Sequence record: LC788705.1 | DNA length: 64,000 nt | Source of the DNA: Escherichia coli phage NG_A1 | Direction: 5' to 3' (one strand) | Made by a program: the position numbers and the translations under genes | The notes under the pieces: generated by a model | The model's database searches: none | What the model was told of the DNA's origin: nothing | Seen by the model: the letters and a program-made list of their open reading frames with translations, nothing else | Shown here: positions 4,059 through 63,345 of the stretch, one piece after another | Layout of the letters: every line of letters begins with the position of its first letter | How positions within the stretch are numbered: position 1 is the first letter of the stretch

Positions 4059-4320
4059 TTCGGCCTCCCTCGTTAATCGGTGAGTGAATGATATAGATAT
4101 TTGTTCACTAGGGGCAAGAAAAAAGAAAATGTTTTTTATTCCTTGCCTAGCGCCTAGTTTTATGCTAACCGCGCAGCGGTACAGTAAAGAGCAAAACACG
4201 GTGAAGCCACCAGGGCGACTGGTGAAGGCTTTACTTTAATATTACCCCACCGCATTTAGCTCGTTAGAAAGCGTTTTAGGCCGCTTAAAATTAATTGCAG
4301 TCGTTAACACTACCTTTCTA

Positions 4321-4440
4321 CCCTGTATATTTATACAGTAGGATAACATGTGGATAAGTCTGTGGATAAGTCCTTATATCGCCGCCTATCGTGTCAAGTT
4401 AATTTACAAAATGTATAAGGCTGTGGATAACTTAAATGAT
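4321..4440. repeat. Inverted-repeat arm B (~120 bp) carrying DnaA boxes
   Basis: Reverse complement matches 181-300; TGTGGATAA at 4349-4357, 4361-4369 and 4422-4430. Confidence 0.8.
4349..4430 (-). promoter_or_regulatory. Three consensus DnaA boxes on the complementary strand (4349-4357, 4361-4369, 4422-4430)
   Basis: Exact reverse-complement matches to TTATCCACA. Confidence 0.6.
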
Positions 4441-4620
4441 AGTGGTTCTCACTAACTAATTTATGCAGTTATTGTATAACAAAATATAGTTAGTTGGCTA
4501 ATAGGATTTTAAAGTGATTATGAGTCTGCTAATTAAACCTGAAAAACTCATTAGGTAGTCTGCTAATGATTTTGATATAATATAATAGAGATTAAATTAA
4601 TAACATAAGGAAACAATTAG

Positions 4621-5139: not shown

Positions 5140-5637
5140 TTAATTTTATAAAATAACTCGTTTAGTCTTGATTTTTAAAAGTCAATATCTTTTACAACTA
5201 TTTTTCAATTTTGCTTTTGTTAAATATTTGTTAAATCGAAAATAAGCCGCCTAAAACGCCCTAGAACGCGATGAAGTTTTTAGCCATGCCATTGCATTGC
5301 CTGCCCTCGTTTATCGCTGCCACGAGCTTTTTAGATTTTGTCAAGTAGGGCAAAGCAAATATAAATGAAAAATTACTTGCCTATCTGCTTTATTTTGTGG
5401 TATTCGCGCGCCCGTTTCTTTTAATTTTAGGCCGTCGCCGCACGGTGTCCGGTGAGTTTTACCTTTACGTTTCTTTACAAAAATAAGGTTGCGCCGTTTT
5501 TAGTATTTGCTATTATTTATCTCGTAGGACGGCAACGGACTACAACGGCGGGAAGTTTACCGCCGCGCTCTTTAAAAATTGGGTACATCTTAAAGCCTAT
5601 CGGCGGTAAACTTATTACATTATAAGGAATCGACGAT

Positions 5638-58384: not shown

Positions 58385-58613
58385 TTTCTTTAATCAATTC
58401 TCCCAATTCTCTATAGATTTGATCTAACTCAAAAGATATACGTAATGATATACTTTGCTTTCTCTGCTTTAGCAACCATGCGCCTATACCATTTATGGAT
58501 GCTAGTCTAGCAGGAACCACCCTACATAGCTTTTCCGAAGTATCATAAACAGGAACTTTACGTTCTTTTACTGGAAACTTCCTTGTTTCCCATTTTTTAT
58601 TCTTCACTGTCAT
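58362..58613 (-). CDS. Hypothetical small basic protein (83 aa from ATG)
   Basis: Track ORF 58362..58622 starts at GTG; basic; overlaps neighbours; weak support. Confidence 0.3.
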   Translation of the reverse strand: MTVKNKKWETRKFPVKERKVPVYDTSEKLCRVVPARLASINGIGAWLLKQRKQSISLRISFELDQIYRELGELIKENDNTGRG

Positions 58614-61386
58614 TTCTAGCACCTAGCTCTGACATTGCTTCATCGTGCATATGTTTTTCCTCGTCAGTCATGAACTTATAAGGAATCGGCATACATTCGA
58701 TTTTACAATAGGTTCTGTACCAGTCTACTATATTTTCAGTGTTCATATCCTTACCAATACCCATCATACCAAGATACATTCTTGCATATTTTGGATTAGC
58801 ACTCTGACCTGTTTTAAGGAAGAAGTCCTTCTTCTTACCTTTCAGAGCTTCTATGAATGGTTTAATGGTCACATTTGAACACTTCTTAATATCTTCCCAG
58901 AACATCTCGTGCATCTTATGAAAGAATGCAGCTCGATCATTTGGTTTATCTTTGATATATTGTTCAACATGCTCAACTGTTACATCTTTAATAGACTCAA
59001 GATGATAATAGCGAACAAGAAGTAGTTTAGCTTCATACGCATCTGCATGACGTGGGGCACAGTAATCCGGAGTTGAATGTAGGATAGCTTTGATTCGCTC
59101 TTCTGTATATTCTTTGCCTGCACCTTCGATAGTTCCCCAGCTTTCACTGAAAATATCAATAGTTGCACCCTGATCAAGCAAGTAATAACGTAAGGTACTA
59201 GTATAGTTCCTAGATTCCAGCTCCCTACGACGTGCGTATAATTGCTGTGCTAACTCCAGCCAACCCTCATCAATATTATATTGTTCAGAACCTGCGGAGA
59301 ATCCACTCGTAGATTTATCAATAAAGTAATAAATGTTCTGAGCACCACGGTCGCGCCTGATTGCTTGGAAACGCATGTTTGGCGCTTGGTTGCTGGTTCT
59401 AGTAATAACGAATACGTTATCAAAATAGTTGAAGTCAACGCCACTTGTTACGGATGGACTACATAATAAGCAATCAATTTGTTGGTCAATTAGCTCATTA
59501 GTTGTGTAATCCAGAATACGTCGAATATCTACATCGGATGTAGAATTTGAGTGGATTTCCTTAACTAACGCACCCGTATTACGACGCAATGCCATGCCCT
59601 TCTCATTCAGTTCATCCGGTCCACAGTCAGATACTAGGATAGATTTCTCACCCATCTCTAGAGAAGTCTGAAGTGCAACCCAAATACTGGATTCATCAGG
59701 GAACTCATAAGCATGAGCTTTTGACAGCATTTTACGGTGATGATTATAAAATGCAACTGGTTTATCAAACTCAATCAAAGAACCATATGCTTCAATTGTT
59801 TCTGCACTAATATCCCCATCAGATAATATAATGATTTTTGCAGTTGCAAGAATATCCCGAAGAACCTGAATACATTCACGACGTTGTTTAACAACCGGGG
59901 CGAATAATAGGTCGTTCATTACTGCATCACATTCATCGATAAAGATTGCATCAATTTGACCAATAAAACTCTTGAACTTATGCAAAGAGTGAATAGTTGT
60001 GGACATACGGTCAATAGCACCACGCTTAAAATTAAGCATATCTACAGACTTATCGTATTGTCCTGCACTAAATTTCTTAGCATTTGAAGATACCAGTGCT
60101 CTAGTATTGGTAATTGCTAAAAAATTACCTTTAATAACTCCTGAATCTAACCAACGCACAACCGCCGTGGTTTTACCTGTGCCTAAACTCGCTTTTACAA
60201 AAGTCATATAACCTTCTGGTGGCACAGTATTTAGTTTCAAGAAATTATCAGTTTCTAGAGAATTAGTTTCTAGCTTTTTAAGTGGAATACCTTTTAAAAT
60301 ATCGGGTATATCGCGTTTAGAATTATTAACAAACGCTTTCAGAGCCTGCTTACGACCGTTATTAAAATAATCTTGAATATTACGACTGTTATCTTTAGTT
60401 GCGATATATTCTGATAAGGCTGGACGGATTTCTTTTTCTAGCCATGCAAAATCAACACCATCCTCTAATGCTCTATGGTATAGTTTGGGGATAATACGCA
60501 AGTACACCCCATCCTCAGCTTCTTCTAGTTCGCTGATAGTTTCCTCTACTTTATCAGAGGCAGCTTTTTTACCTTTAATTTGATCGAGTAAAGAGTAAAA
60601 CTCCTCCTTAAACTCACCTCTAGTTGTTTCATAGTCAACCAGATTATTTGGTAAATTTACTTTAGAACCTTTAACAAATACCAGACGTGAAGCACCCTCC
60701 GCTTTAAACGGATCTACTATACCATCGGTAAATAACGGATCTGCAAAATAATGGAGCTGTACGGAAGAGTAATAAGCTAAGTCGGCAATATCAAAGCCGT
60801 ACTTTTGTCTACTACTTTCATTGATAGATGTAAATAAGAATTTGATTTGACCCTGAGTTACTTTAACATTAGATTCTAGTATTAAGTGCATTCGGATACC
60901 TGGTTTTAGCCCAGCCGAAGACGATGCATGAGCGATAAACCCTGCATCAAGAGGAAACATATCCTCACTAATACTATTTAACATCCTAATAATATGTCGA
61001 GCCATGCCAACAAGATCAAACTTGTTACAACCACCTGTATCTACAATACCATCCACGTCCATTGCAATTATATGACTTGGGTTAGATACATTAAAGTTGC
61101 CCTTCTTACGTCGCACATTATTTTTAGGTGCAAGACATCGACCTCGTACCGCAACGATATGAGGGTCAGACGTTAAACGTCTCATAAGAGGAAGCATTTC
61201 TACTAGGGTTTGAGGATCAACTTCATCAATTACATCAAACTTGAAGGGCATTGAGGCTGGTTTACCTTCAGGATGCTTTGAGGAAAATCTTTTAGCAAAA
61301 AGATAGTCTTCTGCTTTAACTTCTCGCCAATTGCCTGTGGCTAAATCGCGATGAAATCCTGCATGACCTTGTAGGATTGAGAACAT
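58597..61386 (-). CDS. Putative SF2 replication helicase/ATPase (929 aa from the RBS-supported ATG)
   Basis: Walker A SLGTGKTT, Walker B IFIDECD, motif VI-like QAIRRDRGA; AGGAG RBS before ATG at 61386. Confidence 0.55.
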   Translation of the reverse strand: MFSILQGHAGFHRDLATGNWREVKAEDYLFAKRFSSKHPEGKPASMPFKFDVIDEVDPQTLVEMLPLMRRLTSDPHIVAVRGRCLAPKNNVRRKKGNFNVSNPSHIIAMDVDGIVDTGGCNKFDLVGMARHIIRMLNSISEDMFPLDAGFIAHASSSAGLKPGIRMHLILESNVKVTQGQIKFLFTSINESSRQKYGFDIADLAYYSSVQLHYFADPLFTDGIVDPFKAEGASRLVFVKGSKVNLPNNLVDYETTRGEFKEEFYSLLDQIKGKKAASDKVEETISELEEAEDGVYLRIIPKLYHRALEDGVDFAWLEKEIRPALSEYIATKDNSRNIQDYFNNGRKQALKAFVNNSKRDIPDILKGIPLKKLETNSLETDNFLKLNTVPPEGYMTFVKASLGTGKTTAVVRWLDSGVIKGNFLAITNTRALVSSNAKKFSAGQYDKSVDMLNFKRGAIDRMSTTIHSLHKFKSFIGQIDAIFIDECDAVMNDLLFAPVVKQRRECIQVLRDILATAKIIILSDGDISAETIEAYGSLIEFDKPVAFYNHHRKMLSKAHAYEFPDESSIWVALQTSLEMGEKSILVSDCGPDELNEKGMALRRNTGALVKEIHSNSTSDVDIRRILDYTTNELIDQQIDCLLCSPSVTSGVDFNYFDNVFVITRTSNQAPNMRFQAIRRDRGAQNIYYFIDKSTSGFSAGSEQYNIDEGWLELAQQLYARRRELESRNYTSTLRYYLLDQGATIDIFSESWGTIEGAGKEYTEERIKAILHSTPDYCAPRHADAYEAKLLLVRYYHLESIKDVTVEHVEQYIKDKPNDRAAFFHKMHEMFWEDIKKCSNVTIKPFIEALKGKKKDFFLKTGQSANPKYARMYLGMMGIGKDMNTENIVDWYRTYCKIECMPIPYKFMTDEEKHMHDEAMSELGARNDSEE

Positions 61387-61885
61387 AACAATACTCCTGT
61401 GTTGGAAATAAAATAAGTTTTCTTTAGGACTATTCAGAAAGAATAGAACAACTGTTACTGTCAATTTCTCAACAAATTAATCGCAAATACTGAAGTGGGG
61501 TGGCAACTTCCACTTTCACGCTGCGCTGCTGCTTTGCTATATCGCACAAATCCTTGAGGATGGCCGCTAAGCCAGATTTGCTCACCTAATGCTTCATATA
61601 CTAGCTCATACTAGATGCAATATAACTTACAGAATCACGTCTCGGAGTTTTTCACTCCTCCCATCTCACTTCACAACCACCTCATACTAGGTTGCTTCGA
61701 GGCCTTACCAGGGTTCCTATGGGACGCAGATCGCTAAGTATTCTATTAACTATTTGTTTAAAAACTAACACGTAACAGTTAAAACAACCCTTAATGGGGC
61801 AGCCTAACTGTTCCGTATCGCGGATTGTAAACAAGAAAAATTAGCAAAATCAATTTTTACTAATGTCTCTCAATTCAATATAAAT

Positions 61886-61914
61886 ATTATATCAAGATTT
61901 TGGGCATCCTGCAA
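61886..61914 (-). promoter_or_regulatory. Early sigma70-type promoter (TTGCAG-N17-TATAAT)
   Basis: -35 at 61909-61914, -10 at 61886-61891 on the minus strand; ~500 nt upstream of the next start. Confidence 0.5.
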
Positions 61915-62005
61915 GTAAAATTTTCCGGATGGTGCTATCATTGGTCTTGAGTACGGATAAAACCGAGCCAAAATGACTCGGTAATCAGAGTTCAGCTAAT
62001 AAAAA

Positions 62006-62398
62006 TCATTCATCATTTAAGCCTGGAACATAAATCCCAACACGGTTTAATTGTTCTTTAGCTTCTTTGAGAATATCTGGAGTGTACTCCCAAATATCAT
62101 CTTCCACCTGTAAAAGATGGGGCGAACAACCATCATCCGACACACGACATATGGCCAAACCACGTGGGTGGAACAAAGAGAAATTTAGGGCAACAATTAA
62201 ACCCATAGCAGACAACTCATTCCAATCCAACTCCCATTCCCCCGCGTAGCCGGATAGGAAAACACCAACACAGGGATCATCTATTTGCTGCTCCGGAAAA
62301 GTGAAGGAGGCTTGTCTTACCCCCAACCAACGTTGCAGCAGCTTCTCCCCACGTTTCACCAAACTAGGATCAATCTGACGCCAATATACTTGTTCCAT
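62006..62398 (-). CDS. Hypothetical protein, tandem paralogue A (130 aa)
   Basis: Shares DDPCVGVFL...MGLIVALNFSLFHP...YVPGLN blocks with the adjacent 142-aa ORF. Confidence 0.5.
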   Translation of the reverse strand: MEQVYWRQIDPSLVKRGEKLLQRWLGVRQASFTFPEQQIDDPCVGVFLSGYAGEWELDWNELSAMGLIVALNFSLFHPRGLAICRVSDDGCSPHLLQVEDDIWEYTPDILKEAKEQLNRVGIYVPGLNDE

Positions 62399-62407
62399 TC
62401 TGCCTCC

Positions 62408-62836
62408 TTAAGCAGTTAAACCTGGGATCATATACCCGAAACGTCGAAGTTTCTGAATCCCCTCATTTACTTCTTCCGGTGAGTAAGACCAACCATAACG
62501 TTCATTAACCTGAAAACCAGGAGATTCACTAGTTTTATAGTTAACAACAAGGCGATGCTTAGCAGGCATAAACAGCTTATAATTTAACGCAAAAACTAAG
62601 CCCATTTCGTCTAACTCTTTCCAGCCCACAATCTCTTCAAGACCCTCCTCTACCTGCACAATTAAACCAATACAGGGAGCCTCATCAATATCATCTTTAA
62701 AAGCAAAGGAGATTTCGTTATTCTCACACCATATTTTCAAAGAGTTAATAGCCTCATTATACAGGCTAGCTGGGAGAGTACGCCAAAAGTTAGCCAAAAT
62801 TGGGTTAGCTTTTTTAGAGAATACATTATTGAACAT
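62408..62836 (-). CDS. Hypothetical protein, tandem paralogue B (142 aa)
   Basis: Alignable with 62006..62398 across the core. Confidence 0.5.
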   Translation of the reverse strand: MFNNVFSKKANPILANFWRTLPASLYNEAINSLKIWCENNEISFAFKDDIDEAPCIGLIVQVEEGLEEIVGWKELDEMGLVFALNYKLFMPAKHRLVVNYKTSESPGFQVNERYGWSYSPEEVNEGIQKLRRFGYMIPGLTA

Positions 62837-62838
62837 AT

Positions 62839-63345
62839 TTACACCTTAAATTGTTGCAAGGATTTACACATTTCAAGATCTGGGCTAAATTCTAGCATAT
62901 AGCTAACAGCTTTTAAATCTTGAAGATTTATCCCAGTCCTACCATTGACTATAACCGTTGGATACTGGTACATCATAGCACCAGCGTCATCCAGAACACA
63001 CCAATGTTTGAGCTTATGCTTTTCAACGAAGCGAAGAACAGAATTACCCCTAGATAATCCACCCCCAGTAAAATCCGTTGTACCAAGAAAACGATCGATA
63101 AGACCTAATCCGGTCATAATCTGAACGTTCTCCATCTCATTCCTGACAGAGAACCATGAGGATACTCCAACAATCATTATCGGAGAAGGACGAATAAAGT
63201 CCTGAAAAGCCTTGAGAAGCGGTTTGAAAACCCAATCACTTCCAAAGAAAATCTTTTCGTCATCAGGTGCATGATGGTGGGAGATGCTCGAATTGAGCAC
63301 CCCATCAATATCTAGAAAAATAATTGGAGTATTACTTATTTCCAT
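62839..63345 (-). CDS. HAD-like phosphatase (168 aa)
   Basis: N-terminal motif IIFLDIDGVLNS (DxDGV). Confidence 0.55.
   Translation of the reverse strand: MEISNTPIIFLDIDGVLNSSISHHHAPDDEKIFFGSDWVFKPLLKAFQDFIRPSPIMIVGVSSWFSVRNEMENVQIMTGLGLIDRFLGTTDFTGGGLSRGNSVLRFVEKHKLKHWCVLDDAGAMMYQYPTVIVNGRTGINLQDLKAVSYMLEFSPDLEMCKSLQQFKV

What the first reader, a model, noticed from the sequence alone, without database searches (positions are those of the whole stretch)
61387..62005. About 600 bp without a called ORF between a promoter and the large helicase gene
The promoter at 61886-61914 lies ~500 nt upstream of the helicase start (61386), and no ORF of 60 aa or more or tRNA-like structure is evident on either strand. 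The leader contains several short hairpins. It could encode an ncRNA, a long regulated leader, or unannotated micro-ORFs.
Basis: seen in the sequence. Interest (0 to 1): 0.35.

Follow-up and report, generated by a model that had tools for sequence, protein, structure and literature searches.

The report
Conserved structured RNA upstream of helicase
The 600-base "empty" stretch in front of the replication-initiator helicase gene of this T5-like phage is transcribed from a strong early promoter into a roughly 490-base RNA leader whose elaborate fold is conserved across several genera of T5-family phages and matches no catalogued RNA family, but what it does is not yet known.

Summary
Window 61387-62005 is the largest internal ORF-free stretch. 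It lies between a terminator/early-promoter pair, which the T5 reference record also annotates, and the ATG (61386) of the UL9-like "origin-binding" helicase (D2 of Wong 2013). It has no tRNA, no Rfam match and no conserved micro-ORF. The predicted transcript (TSS ~61879, minus strand, ~493 nt) is a conserved structured RNA. Its parts are a 5' hairpin, a ~37-bp composite long-range stem enclosing ~270 nt, and a three-way junction displaying an invariant GCUUAGCGGC loop. Base pairs are kept by compensatory changes (55 of 106 pairs; 91% paired against 40-47% in slid controls). A covariance model trained on three lineages recovered the junction domain at the syntenic site in two lineages it had not seen (T5-type allele, Providencia phages), with 8-13 double changes each. 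Excess G-U pairs and folding energies point to the helicase-sense strand. A long promoter-led non-coding region precedes this gene in every Demerecviridae genus examined. Function is inferred only. The likeliest is a cis-acting leader controlling initiator expression (~0.5). Rivals are an excised trans-acting RNA and a transcription-primed origin. It appears to be a new RNA family of moderate interest.

The parts
61955..61982 (-). Intrinsic terminator closing the upstream operon (DUF7415 paralogues). The 9-bp stem ACCGAGUCA/UGGCUCGGU spans 61982-61962 and is followed by UUUUAU.
   Evidence: Fold energy -13.2 kcal/mol, z = -4.0. Annotated as a rho-independent terminator at the homologous place in T5 AY543070 (58952-58976).
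61886..61926 (-). T5 early-class sigma-70 promoter: A/T-rich upstream tract, -35 TTGCAG (61914-61909), 17-nt spacer, extended -10 TGaTATAAT (61894-61886), ATATT discriminator. Predicted TSS is about A61879.
   Evidence: Sequence. T5 reference annotation of a promoter here. The same -10/discriminator occurs at three other early-promoter sites in the window. ATATT hallmark reported in PMC7472727. At least 0.89 mean identity over 33 phages. An equivalent strong promoter opens the gap in all genera examined.
61387..61879 (-). Whole predicted leader RNA, about 493 nt from the TSS to the base before the ATG.
   Evidence: MFE -135.2 kcal/mol, z = -2.6, against -105.9 for the opposite strand. Consensus structure of 106 pairs, 55 with compensatory changes. 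Leader length is 468-493 nt in Tequinta-, Epseptima-, Sugarland-, Hongcheon- and Myunavirus-type phages.
61833..61871 (-). 5'-proximal hairpin H1 (GAGAGA.AUUAGUAAAA/UUUUGCUAAU.UUUCUU), starting 9 nt after the TSS.
   Evidence: Fold energy -12.3 kcal/mol, z = -3.5. A hairpin sits at the same place in Klebsiella, Pectobacterium and Providencia phages with different stem sequences. It is nearly invariant within Tequinta/Epseptimavirus.
61794..61818 (-). Most widely conserved sequence island, AUACGGAACAGUUAGGCUGCCCCAU, with a small hairpin CAGU-UAG-GCUG.
   Evidence: Identical or nearly identical in T5-like, Pectobacterium (DU_PP_V, My1) and Klebsiella phages. Its pairs never vary, so the hairpin itself is neither supported nor refuted.
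61724..61781 (-). 5' arm of the long composite closing stem (helices 3-7 of the consensus).
   Evidence: Pairs with 61449-61526. There are 37 pairs in five segments, 21 of them with compensatory changes. In Epseptimavirus AACUGUUAC becomes AACUAUUAC on both arms. Providencia, Pectobacterium and Aeromonas phages have different-sequence long-range inverted repeats at the same place.
61449..61526 (-). 3' arm of the long composite closing stem.
   Evidence: As for the 5' arm. Many G-U pairs occur in this stem, so it is selected at the RNA level and not as a DNA cruciform.
61644..61723 (-). Inner domain A: helices 8-12, including the hairpin GGAGU-GAAAA-ACUCC and the G-rich island GAUGGGAGG.
   Evidence: Compensatory changes occur even between close relatives, for example G-C to A-U in the GGAGU hairpin in L015.
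61536..61626 (-). Three-way-junction domain: outer helix 61626-61619/61543-61536, hairpin 61617-61583, and a hairpin 61581-61546 capped by the invariant GGCUUAGCGGCC (61573-61562).
   Evidence: Covariance model R1, trained on win-type, Klebsiella and Pectobacterium sequences, finds this domain at the syntenic site in the T5-type allele and in Providencia phages (E 0.003-0.06). There 22-25 of 23-28 pairs are canonical and 8-13 are changed on both sides. In the 11-sequence alignment all 8 of 8 pairs of the outer helix and of the loop-bearing helix show compensatory changes.
61496..61512 (-). Hairpin carrying the conserved GUUGCCACCCC island (61507-61497).
   Evidence: Conserved in win-type, Pectobacterium and Klebsiella phages, with a U-A to G-C compensatory change in L015. 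In the T5-type allele a different hairpin sits at the same position.
61430..61446 (-). 3' hairpin CUAUUC-UUUCU-GAAUAG between the closing stem and the ribosome-binding site. Its pyrimidine arm can alternatively pair with the Shine-Dalgarno region.
   Evidence: Fold z = -6.5. The hairpin is kept with other sequences in Klebsiella (CUAUC/GAUAG), Pectobacterium (CUUUCC/GGAAAG) and Providencia (CCUG/CAGG). RNAalifold instead pairs 61445-61439 with 61398-61392, with 3 of 7 pairs compensatory. Accessibility predictions are ambiguous.
61384..61398 (-). Shine-Dalgarno AGGAG (61398-61394) and start codon ATG (61386-61384) of the origin-binding-protein/D2 helicase gene.
   Evidence: Sequence. The start and the MFSIL N-terminus are conserved in all relatives. 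Pfam Herpes_ori_bp and PHROG 'replication origin binding' match the protein.

Best explanation
The interval is the transcribed 5' leader of the mRNA for the phage's UL9-like replication-initiator helicase. Host RNA polymerase starts at a strong T5 early promoter (TSS ~61879, minus strand) just after the terminator of the preceding operon. It makes about 493 nt of untranslated RNA before the ATG at 61386. This RNA folds into a defined architecture. That architecture comprises a 5' hairpin, a conserved single-stranded/hairpin island, and a ~37-bp interrupted long-range stem that closes a ~270-nt core. The core contains a multi-helix domain and a three-way junction that presents an invariant GCUUAGCGGC loop. 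A small hairpin lies next to the ribosome-binding site. SHOWN: the fold is under purifying selection at the RNA level, on the helicase-sense strand, in at least five genus-level lineages, and it belongs to no Rfam family. INFERRED: it acts in cis on production of the initiator helicase. The most plausible route is that the long double-stranded stem and the conserved loops serve as a processing and/or factor-binding platform. Candidates are RNase III-type cleavage, or binding of the helicase itself or another early protein. Either would set the stability and translation of the downstream message, with the pyrimidine arm of the 3' hairpin able to mask the Shine-Dalgarno sequence.
For: Promoter, terminator and gene arrangement. 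Non-coding. Positional conservation: a promoter-led stretch of 480-1300 nt without credible genes precedes the OBP gene in Tequinta-, Epseptima-, Sugarland-, Hongcheon-, Priuna-, Thalassa- and Shenzhenvirus-type phages. Sequence conservation exceeds that of the flanking genes over 61926-61787. Structure: RNAalifold gives 106 pairs, 55 with compensatory change. Of all cells, 90.9% are paired against 40-47% when partners are slid, and 0 of 500 shuffles reach the observed values. Independent lineages: a model trained without them finds the junction domain in the T5-type allele and in Providencia phages with pairs kept through 8-13 double changes. The T5-type allele, about 50% identical in the core, folds by itself into the same order of helices at nearly the same coordinates. 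Strand specificity: 127 G-U against 13 A-C cells, alifold energy -149 against -120 kcal/mol, and single-sequence energy -135 against -106. An optional 97-nt self-folding module is inserted after the 5' hairpin in four phages, as is typical for modular RNAs. Cis-action: the RNA is always co-oriented with and immediately 5' of the OBP gene. Expression-platform-like elements differ by lineage: a hairpin/anti-SD next to the RBS in T5-likes, and intrinsic terminators 85-130 nt before the ATG in Vibrio phage D145.
Against: There are no transcript data. The TSS, the transcript's extent and any processing are all predictions. The consensus structure was derived from the alignment on which it was first scored, only about 6-7 independent lineages exist, and E-values in the unseen lineages are modest (0.003-0.06). 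Predicted Shine-Dalgarno accessibility is not consistently lower with the full leader than without it. The 5'-end/start-codon pairing shows no covariation. A Proteus-type phage has a second perfect consensus promoter 36 nt before the OBP start, and Vibrio and Aeromonas phages have terminators between the RNA and the gene. The RNA may therefore function independently of the helicase mRNA. Base pairing alone does not explain the near-invariance of the first ~110 nt, including the promoter, across two genera. No ligand, protein partner or cleavage site is identified.
Confidence: 0.5

Rival explanations
1. A stand-alone, trans-acting non-coding RNA gene. The ~270-400-nt structured core is released from the primary transcript, for example by cleavage in the long stem, much as rRNAs are cut from their flanking stems. 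It then acts on something other than the helicase mRNA, such as a host or phage protein, RNA polymerase or a defence system. Its position next to the OBP gene would be historical.
For: The size and complexity (19 helices, conserved loops) exceed what simple translational operators need. The core is enclosed by a ~37-bp stem suited to excision. A second consensus promoter lies directly before OBP in a Proteus-type phage. Terminators separate the RNA region from OBP in Vibrio D145 and Aeromonas TS3. A strong early promoter drives it.
Against: In T5-like, Klebsiella and Pectobacterium phages there is no terminator between the structure and the ATG, and no promoter for OBP other than the one at the start of the leader. 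The adjacency and co-orientation with OBP are invariant in all genera examined. No complementarity to other parts of the window or to E. coli genomes was found.
Confidence: 0.2
2. A transcription-dependent origin of replication. The early promoter fires into the region next to the initiator gene and the transcript acts as a pre-primer or R-loop former, analogous to ColE1 RNA II, T4 oriF/oriG or the T7 primary origin. The origin-binding helicase would load there.
For: The element sits immediately upstream of the gene for the only UL9-like origin-binding helicase (PMC3632103), as origins often sit next to initiator genes. The promoter-to-gene distance is strikingly constant at 468-493 nt, as is the promoter-to-origin distance in ColE1. 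The promoter and first ~110 bp are more conserved at the DNA level than the coding flanks, and include an AT-rich palindrome. The locus lies at about 48.6% of the T5 genome. From memory only, the 1976 electron-microscopy study placed an early origin near the middle of the genome; that paper could not be read here. No T5 origin has been mapped to sequence.
Against: Recombitron editing of T5 shows one strand preference across the genome. [quoted passage not shown] No iterons were found: the repeats in the gap are the arms of RNA helices, and CTTAGCG is not enriched in the window. The inverted repeats tolerate G-U but not A-C, so they are selected as RNA and not as DNA. No antisense promoter of the RNA I type was found. 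GC skew changes with transcription direction near 40 kb, not at this locus.
Confidence: 0.15
3. Unannotated small protein genes (micro-ORFs). Some GenBank records do call three CDSs of 33-60 aa in the gap.
For: Automatic annotations of Salmonella phage WP85, Klebsiella phage DevonBitter and Vibrio phage D145 place tiny CDSs here. A 50-aa TTG ORF overlaps the conserved island.
Against: No ORF is conserved. The +46 TTG ORF is 50 aa in this phage, 21 aa in T5, absent in the Klebsiella phage and read in another frame in DU_PP_V. Indels are not multiples of three, no Shine-Dalgarno precedes the ORFs, and no PHROG family matches. Substitutions come in compensating pairs, not at third codon positions.
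Confidence: 0.03
4. A functionless spacer or a decayed gene remnant whose apparent structure is a by-product of alignment and relatedness.
For: The core differs by about 50% between two alleles within one genus. The shuffle controls of the pair-count tool can be exceeded by related sequences without any structure (caveat stated in the tool description).
Against: Phage genomes are compact (92% of this window is covered by ORFs), yet the gap is kept at similar length in genera whose helicases are only 57-74% identical. Slid-partner controls, which preserve relatedness, give 14-18 compensatory pairs against 55 observed. The two divergent alleles keep the same helices. Parts are more conserved than the neighbouring genes.
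Confidence: 0.05

Closest known systems
RNase III-processed phage leaders (lambda N-gene leader; T7 early-mRNA R sites)
   Same: A long untranslated leader is made by host polymerase from a strong early promoter. A long interrupted double-stranded stem lies upstream of the ribosome-binding site. A plausible consequence is control of translation and stability of the downstream early gene.
   Different: No sequence or model similarity, and cleavage is untested. The stem here encloses a ~270-nt conserved multi-domain core rather than being a simple hairpin. The element is about 490 nt long and conserved across genera with invariant loops.
Large cis-regulatory leaders (riboswitches, T-boxes, ribosomal-protein and T4 gene 32/43-type autoregulatory operators)
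   Same: It is located between promoter and start codon. The fold is conserved with covariation. Lineage-specific 'expression platforms' are possible: a hairpin/anti-SD in T5-likes and terminators in Vibrio phages.
   Different: It matches none of 4227 Rfam models. It is 2-4 times larger than typical aptamers. No ligand or protein partner is known, and the switch helices are not demonstrated.
ColE1 RNA II pre-primer and the transcription-primed origins of T4 (oriF/oriG) and T7
   Same: A strong promoter lies about 500 nt upstream of a replication function. The structured transcript has a constant length, and the locus is adjacent to replication genes.
   Different: There is no antisense RNA I-type promoter and no mapped RNA-DNA transition. 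Published strand-bias data argue against a dominant central origin in T5. T4 and T7 origins need no conserved RNA fold.
Large ornate phage-associated ncRNAs (GOLLD, ROOL, HEARO and similar)
   Same: It is a large, multi-helix RNA conserved by covariation and carried by tailed-phage genomes, with unknown function.
   Different: It does not match their Rfam models. It is always fused to the 5' end of one specific gene, rather than lying near tRNA genes or being free-standing. So far it is restricted to Demerecviridae.

Membership tests
Any Rfam 15 family (including riboswitches, GOLLD/ROOL, 6S, group I/II introns, small ribozymes) | Covariance-model score at or near the family's gathering threshold | tested here: not met
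   Best hits in window 61000-62500 have E = 4-10 and 13-15 bits against thresholds of 34-43. Seven homologous or analogous loci from other genera gave only one chance-level hit.
tRNA / tmRNA / tRNA-like element | Cloverleaf detected by ARAGORN | tested here: not met
   No genes found in the whole 64-kb window.
Cis-regulatory structured 5' leader (generic class) | Lies between a promoter and the start codon of the regulated gene, on the sense strand | tested here: met
   Promoter 61914-61886, ATG 61386, same strand, no intervening gene or terminator. The strand is confirmed by G-U asymmetry and folding energies.
Cis-regulatory structured 5' leader (generic class) | Secondary structure conserved through compensatory substitutions | tested here: met
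   55 of 106 pairs have double changes, and 91% of cells are paired against 40-47% in slid controls. The domain is recovered in lineages the model had not seen.
Cis-regulatory structured 5' leader (generic class) | Expression platform: alternative pairing that masks the SD/AUG or forms a terminator | tested here: inconclusive
   An anti-SD helix is predicted with 3 of 7 compensatory pairs, but a competing local hairpin is also conserved. Accessibility calculations are ambiguous. Terminators occur before OBP only in Vibrio and Aeromonas phages.
Cis-regulatory structured 5' leader (generic class) | Effector (ligand or protein) changes expression of the downstream gene | not testable with these tools
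   This needs reporter fusions, in-line probing and binding assays.
RNase III-processed leader | About two turns or more of (interrupted) double-stranded RNA | tested here: met
   The composite stem 61781-61724 / 61526-61449 has 37 pairs in five segments, 21 of them covarying.
RNase III-processed leader | Cleavage in vivo that depends on rnc | not testable with these tools
   This needs 5'-end mapping in wild-type and rnc hosts.
ColE1 RNA II-type pre-primer / R-loop origin | Antisense regulator RNA promoter opposite the 5' part of the transcript | tested here: not met
   No plus-strand promoter-like site occurs within 61760-61900. The only plus-strand sites are at 60847 and 61385.
ColE1 RNA II-type pre-primer / R-loop origin | RNA-DNA hybrid and RNA-to-DNA transition at a fixed site | not testable with these tools
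   This needs DRIP or RNase H mapping and origin mapping. Indirect published evidence weighs against a central dominant origin.
Iteron / UL9-box type DNA origin | Several copies of a protein-binding repeat flanking an AT-rich unwinding element | tested here: not met
   Only two-copy short repeats occur. AACTGTTMC is enriched (3 of 6 window copies lie in the gap), but the copies are the arms of the RNA stems, and two of them changed together in Epseptimavirus to keep their pairing while the third did not. CTTAGCG is not enriched in the window.
Protein-coding micro-ORFs | Reading frame, start and length conserved among relatives; family match | tested here: not met

The most novel reading that the evidence does not exclude
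The RNA is part of the replication-initiation machinery of T5-family phages. It would be either the structured pre-primer/R-loop transcript that defines the long-sought T5 origin beside its UL9-like initiator gene, or an RNA cofactor that the initiator helicase binds through the invariant GCUUAGCGGC and GGAACAGUUnGGCUGCCCC elements. That would be an RNA-dependent initiation mechanism not described for tailed phages that use host RNA polymerase.
Probability: 0.15. Interest if true: 0.8.

Novelty: new variant of a known kind. Interest (0 to 1): 0.55.

Why it matters
T5 is a classic model phage, yet neither its replication origin nor the control of its initiator helicase is known. T5-like phages are also widely used in phage therapy and in defence-system research. 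A ~490-nt RNA whose fold is conserved across genera, driven by one of the strong early promoters and fused to the initiator gene, is a concrete and testable handle on that problem. It would also add a large new family to the short list of ornate phage RNAs. In practice, many GenBank records wrongly call tiny CDSs in this interval, or extend the helicase ORF into it, and these could be corrected.

Tried and rejected
1. Rfam searches of the window and of seven related loci found nothing. ARAGORN also found nothing.
2. Micro-ORFs were rejected: no conserved frame and no PHROG hit.
3. Iterons and DNA repeats were rejected. The repeats are helix arms, and the motif counts are explained by pairing.
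4. An early attenuator was considered: the local hairpin 61816-61805/61781-61770 followed by a U-run. It was rejected because the Epseptimavirus G-to-A change in the shared arm is compensated in the distal partner (61458-61450), not in the local one, and because the hairpin is absent in Pectobacterium and Klebsiella phages.
5. GC skew gives no origin signal, as it follows transcription direction.
6. A metagenome scan with ATACRGAACAGTNNGGCTGC gave 26 stretches. Only the 10 T5-like or Klebsiella-phage contigs are real; the rest are chance.
7. A genome-contig scan with a gapped two-island pattern was too loose. It gave more than 120 chance matches, and none scored with model R2. The viral-contig scan returned the known phages plus chance hits.
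8. Adding the T5-type allele to a plain MAFFT alignment destroyed the alignment. This was solved by searching with the covariance model instead.
9. Model R2 with filters off found no convincing homologue in Vibrio or Aeromonas phage loci. Whether their long upstream regions are homologous remains open.
10. No similarity to E. coli genomes was found.
11. Shine-Dalgarno accessibility calculations were uninformative.
12. Literature searches for a described T5 RNA, a transcriptome map or an origin at this locus found nothing. The 1976 origin-mapping paper is not held.
Full report
CONTEXT

The window is a T5-like phage (Tequintavirus). Region 61300-62100 is 99.8% identical to Escherichia phages T5_ev212 and EC148, and 535 phage records share the interval. 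It is not T5 itself: the first 300 residues of the helicase are 90% identical to those of T5 (locus L034). All genes here lie on the minus strand.

The finding's interval is the gap between a 130-aa DUF7415 gene (62006-62398) and the 929-aa gene 58597-61386. That gene is annotated "replication origin binding protein" and matches Pfam Herpes_ori_bp at residues 394-533 and PHROG 3712. Its only solved relatives are herpesvirus UL9 proteins. It corresponds to the bipolar helicase that Wong et al. call D2 (PMC3632103).

THE OBSERVATION

- No ORF of 60 aa or more lies inside 61387-62005; the longest are 50, 40 and 38 aa.
- There is no tRNA or tmRNA in the whole window and no Rfam match better than E = 4.
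- The stretch is the largest internal ORF-free region of the window, which is otherwise 92% covered by ORFs.
- The mechanical helicase ORF extends to a TTG at 61464. The real start is ATG 61386, preceded by AGGAG (61398-61394), and the N-terminus MFSIL is conserved in every relative.

On the minus strand it reads -35 TTGCAG (61914-61909), 17 nt, TGaTATAAT (61894-61886). It is preceded by an A/T tract and by a good intrinsic terminator: a 9-bp stem at 61982-61962 followed by UUUUAU, at -13.2 kcal/mol and z = -4.0. The consensus scanner missed the promoter only because TTGCAG scores 3 of 6.

The T5 reference record annotates a terminator (58952-58976) and a promoter (58999-59073) at exactly the homologous places, followed by about 470 nt and then T5.108. 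The -10/discriminator string recurs at window 54192, 55639 and 56860. By synteny these are the T5 early promoters P-K28, the ligA-upstream promoter and P-N26. The string contains the ATATT that Klimuk et al. report for all T5 early promoters (PMC7472727). The predicted start is about A61879, giving a 493-nt leader.

COMPARATIVE ANATOMY

A promoter-led stretch without credible genes precedes the OBP gene in every Demerecviridae lineage examined.

| Lineage | Length of the stretch |
|---|---|
| T5 | 617 bp |
| Epseptimavirus | 538 and 616 bp as annotated (those records start the OBP gene 96 nt further upstream) |
| Pectobacterium DU_PP_V | 600 bp |
| Klebsiella DevonBitter | 598 bp, three 30-40-aa CDSs called automatically |
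| Providencia PSTCR5 | 711 bp |
| Vibrio Chester | ~630-710 bp |
| Vibrio D145 | 728 bp |
| Aeromonas TS3 | 1590 bp |

Each stretch opens with a strong sigma-70 promoter of the same TTGCA-N17-TATAATAT type. The distance from promoter to ATG is remarkably constant. It is 490-493 nt in Tequinta- and Epseptimavirus, 481 nt in the Klebsiella phage and DU_PP_V, and 468 nt in My1. Providencia (609-613 nt) and a Proteus-type phage (761 nt) have longer versions.

In an alignment of 33 distinct upstream sequences, the best-conserved part of the 890 nt analysed is not a gene. It is 61926-61787, the promoter plus the first ~90 transcribed bases, at a mean identity of at least 0.89 against 0.56-0.86 in the coding flanks. 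A second conserved block lies at 61470-61387.

The centre (61770-61480) exists as two alleles that are only ~55% identical. One is the allele of this window; the other is that of T5 and Epseptimavirus. Even so, islands such as GGCUUAGCGGCC are invariant in both.

EVIDENCE FOR RNA STRUCTURE

Long-range repeats. The gap contains a long-range inverted repeat, AACTGTTAC at 61772-61780 and 61450-61458. In Epseptimavirus both arms have changed to AACTATTAC. Providencia, Pectobacterium and Aeromonas phages carry unrelated long-range inverted repeats at the same relative position.

Consensus fold. RNAalifold was run on seven leaders: four of the window's allele, a Klebsiella phage, DU_PP_V and My1. 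It gives 106 pairs in 19 helices. On that alignment:
- 90.9% of cells are standard pairs, against 40-47% when the 3' partners are slid by 1-3 columns.
- 55 pairs have changes on both sides, against 14-18 in the slid controls and 22 +/- 3 in shuffles.
- 0 of 500 shuffles reach the observed values.

Close relatives. Compensatory changes appear even between near-identical phages. In L015, G-C becomes A-U in the GGAGU hairpin and U-A becomes G-C in the GUGG/CCAC hairpin.

Test on unseen lineages. The structure was derived from the same alignment on which it was scored, so an independent check was needed. Covariance model R1 was built from six sequences of three lineages, covering leader +237 to +386. 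It found the three-way-junction domain at the syntenic position in lineages it had not seen. These were the T5-type allele (E about 0.003-0.009) and two Providencia phages (E 0.003-0.06). In those sequences 22-25 of 23-28 pairs are canonical, and 8-13 pairs differ on both sides from this window.

In the resulting 11-sequence alignment, all 8 of 8 pairs of the outer junction helix show compensatory changes. The same is true of the helix bearing the GCUUAGCGGC loop. Overall 90% of cells are paired, against 37-48% in slid controls. This alignment was fitted to the model, so it leans towards the structure.

The T5-type allele, folded on its own (14 sequences), gives the same order of elements at nearly the same coordinates. 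These are the 5' hairpin at 9-47, the conserved hairpin, the long closing stem, the CUGYG...CRCAG helix, a three-way junction with the GGCUUAGCGGCC loop, a hairpin at ~365-386, and the 3' hairpin.

Strand. The signal is strand-specific:
- 127 G-U cells against 13 A-C cells.
- 91% of cells canonical on the helicase-sense strand against 75% on the other strand.
- alifold energy -149 against -120 kcal/mol.
- Single-sequence energy -135 against -106 kcal/mol.

This pattern indicates selection on an RNA and not on a DNA cruciform. In addition, four phages carry an optional 97-nt insertion after the 5' hairpin. It folds on itself and occurs nowhere else in the loci held here, which is typical of a modular RNA.

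ARCHITECTURE (WINDOW COORDINATES, MINUS STRAND)

- 5' hairpin, 61871-61833.
- Conserved island AUACGGAACAGUUAGGCUGCCCCAU, 61818-61794.
- Composite closing stem, 61781-61724 with 61526-61449: 37 pairs, 21 of them covarying.
- Inner domain, 61723-61644.
- Three-way junction, 61626-61536, with the invariant loop at 61573-61562.
- Hairpin with GUUGCCACCCC, 61512-61496.
- 3' hairpin, 61446-61430.
- SD at 61398-61394 and ATG at 61386.

WHAT IT IS NOT

- Not protein-coding. No ORF is conserved in frame or length among lineages, and the peptides match no PHROG family.
- Not any Rfam family, in this window or in seven related loci.
- Not similar to E. coli DNA.
- Not detected outside Demerecviridae. 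The metagenome scan with the best island returned only T5-like and Klebsiella-phage contigs plus chance hits. Looser pattern hits in bacterial genomes and other viral contigs do not score with the model.
- Homology of the long upstream regions of Vibrio and Aeromonas phages could not be shown. The Aeromonas regions do contain several UUAGCGG hairpin loops.

MECHANISM

Mechanism is inferred, not shown. The invariant position and orientation directly 5' of the initiator-helicase gene favour a cis-acting leader. So does the absence of any other promoter or terminator before the ATG in T5-like, Klebsiella and Pectobacterium phages.

The ~37-bp interrupted stem is the kind of substrate RNase III processes in lambda and T7 early leaders (established knowledge; untested here). 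The small hairpin next to the RBS has a pyrimidine arm that RNAalifold alternatively pairs with the SD, with 3 of 7 pairs compensatory. However, thermodynamic accessibility estimates are ambiguous.

Three observations caution against a purely cis model:
- A Proteus-type phage has a second perfect consensus promoter 36 nt before the OBP start.
- Vibrio D145 has two terminators 85-130 nt before the ATG.
- Aeromonas TS3 has a strong terminator hairpin seen by eye.

The RNA may therefore be a separate product in some lineages.

The attractive idea that this is the unmapped T5 origin rests on three points. These are its adjacency to the initiator gene, the DNA-level ultra-conservation of the promoter-proximal 150 bp, and the constant promoter-to-gene distance. 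Against it stand the lack of iterons, the RNA-type asymmetry of the repeats, the absence of an antisense promoter, and published recombitron data. [quoted passage not shown]

I put the three readings as follows:
- cis-regulatory or processed leader: about 0.5;
- excised trans-acting RNA: about 0.2;
- origin or pre-primer: about 0.15.

The statement that a conserved structured RNA exists here deserves about 0.85-0.9.

VERDICT

It is a previously uncatalogued, covariation-supported leader RNA of about 490 nt in front of the replication-initiator helicase, found in enterobacterial T5-family phages. I found no description of it in Rfam 15 or in the literature available here. That is absence of evidence, not proof of novelty. 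Structured leaders are a known kind of element; this one is a new, unusually large family of unknown function.

Noticed in passing
L023:1950-2046, L045:1949-2045, L036:1952-2048, L007:1951-2047 (insertion point corresponds to window ~61840): Four T5-like/Epseptimavirus phages carry a 97-nt insertion right after the 5' hairpin of the leader. It is flanked by a TTTTTCT(T) direct repeat and folds on itself (-20 kcal/mol). It is found only at this site in the loci held here, so it is more likely an optional RNA module than a mobile element.
   Followed up: partly
L006:1949-1979 (Salmonella phage oselot; homologous to window ~61850-61842): The 3' arm of the 5' hairpin is triplicated as a 9-nt tandem repeat (ATTTTGCTA x3). 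The record annotates this as a repeat_region, and it lengthens the hairpin region.
   Followed up: no
L049:1705-1733 and L049:2435-2464 (Proteus-type phage contig, OBP ATG at 2501): There are two perfect 12/12 consensus sigma-70 promoters. One opens the ~760-nt structured region and the other lies only 36 nt before the helicase start. In this lineage the helicase can therefore be expressed without the leader.
   Followed up: partly
L008:3470-4029 (Klebsiella phage IME260): A second ~560-bp stretch with no annotated gene lies between the SSB gene and a 'DNA helicase' gene. At one end it carries a sequence 85% identical to the promoter of the window's gap (window 61864-61924). Klebsiella phage records show two such places each.
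   Followed up: no
window 62006-62398 and 62408-62836: The two genes upstream of the gap are tandem paralogues, both with two DUF7415 repeats (PHROG 2502). Public records variously label them 'tail tube protein', 'phage exonuclease' or hypothetical. The next gene (62839-63345) has the HAD domain of 'Swiss Army Knife' RNA-repair proteins.
   Followed up: partly
window 58597-61464; L006, L007: Mechanical ORF calling, and some GenBank records (oselot, vB_EcoS-26175III, Vibrio phage Chester), extend the helicase ORF upstream into the leader by 26-32 codons. The conserved start is the ATG/GTG giving MFSIL (or MLTFIEG in the Vibrio phages), preceded by a Shine-Dalgarno sequence.
   Followed up: partly
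window 60487-61386 (helicase residues ~105-170): The N-terminal ~390 residues of the helicase match no Pfam family. They contain invariant motifs (IAMDVDG; ASSSAG.KPG.R.H) that resemble, from memory, the DxD and sxH motifs of archaeo-eukaryotic primases, and some annotators call the gene 'DNA primase C'. If confirmed, the protein would be a primase-helicase initiator.
   Followed up: no
window 4200-4620, 5140-5516, 970-1270: These are further ORF-free stretches of 300-420 bp near the start of the window. They were not examined.
   Followed up: no
L014:1190-1215, 1435-1460, 2010-2030; L063:1135-1160, 1400-1425: The 1.3-kb non-coding region before the helicase gene of Aeromonas phages contains two or three hairpins whose loops read UUAGCGG. 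This is the same motif as the invariant loop of the T5-type RNA, although the covariance model finds no full domain there.
   Followed up: partly
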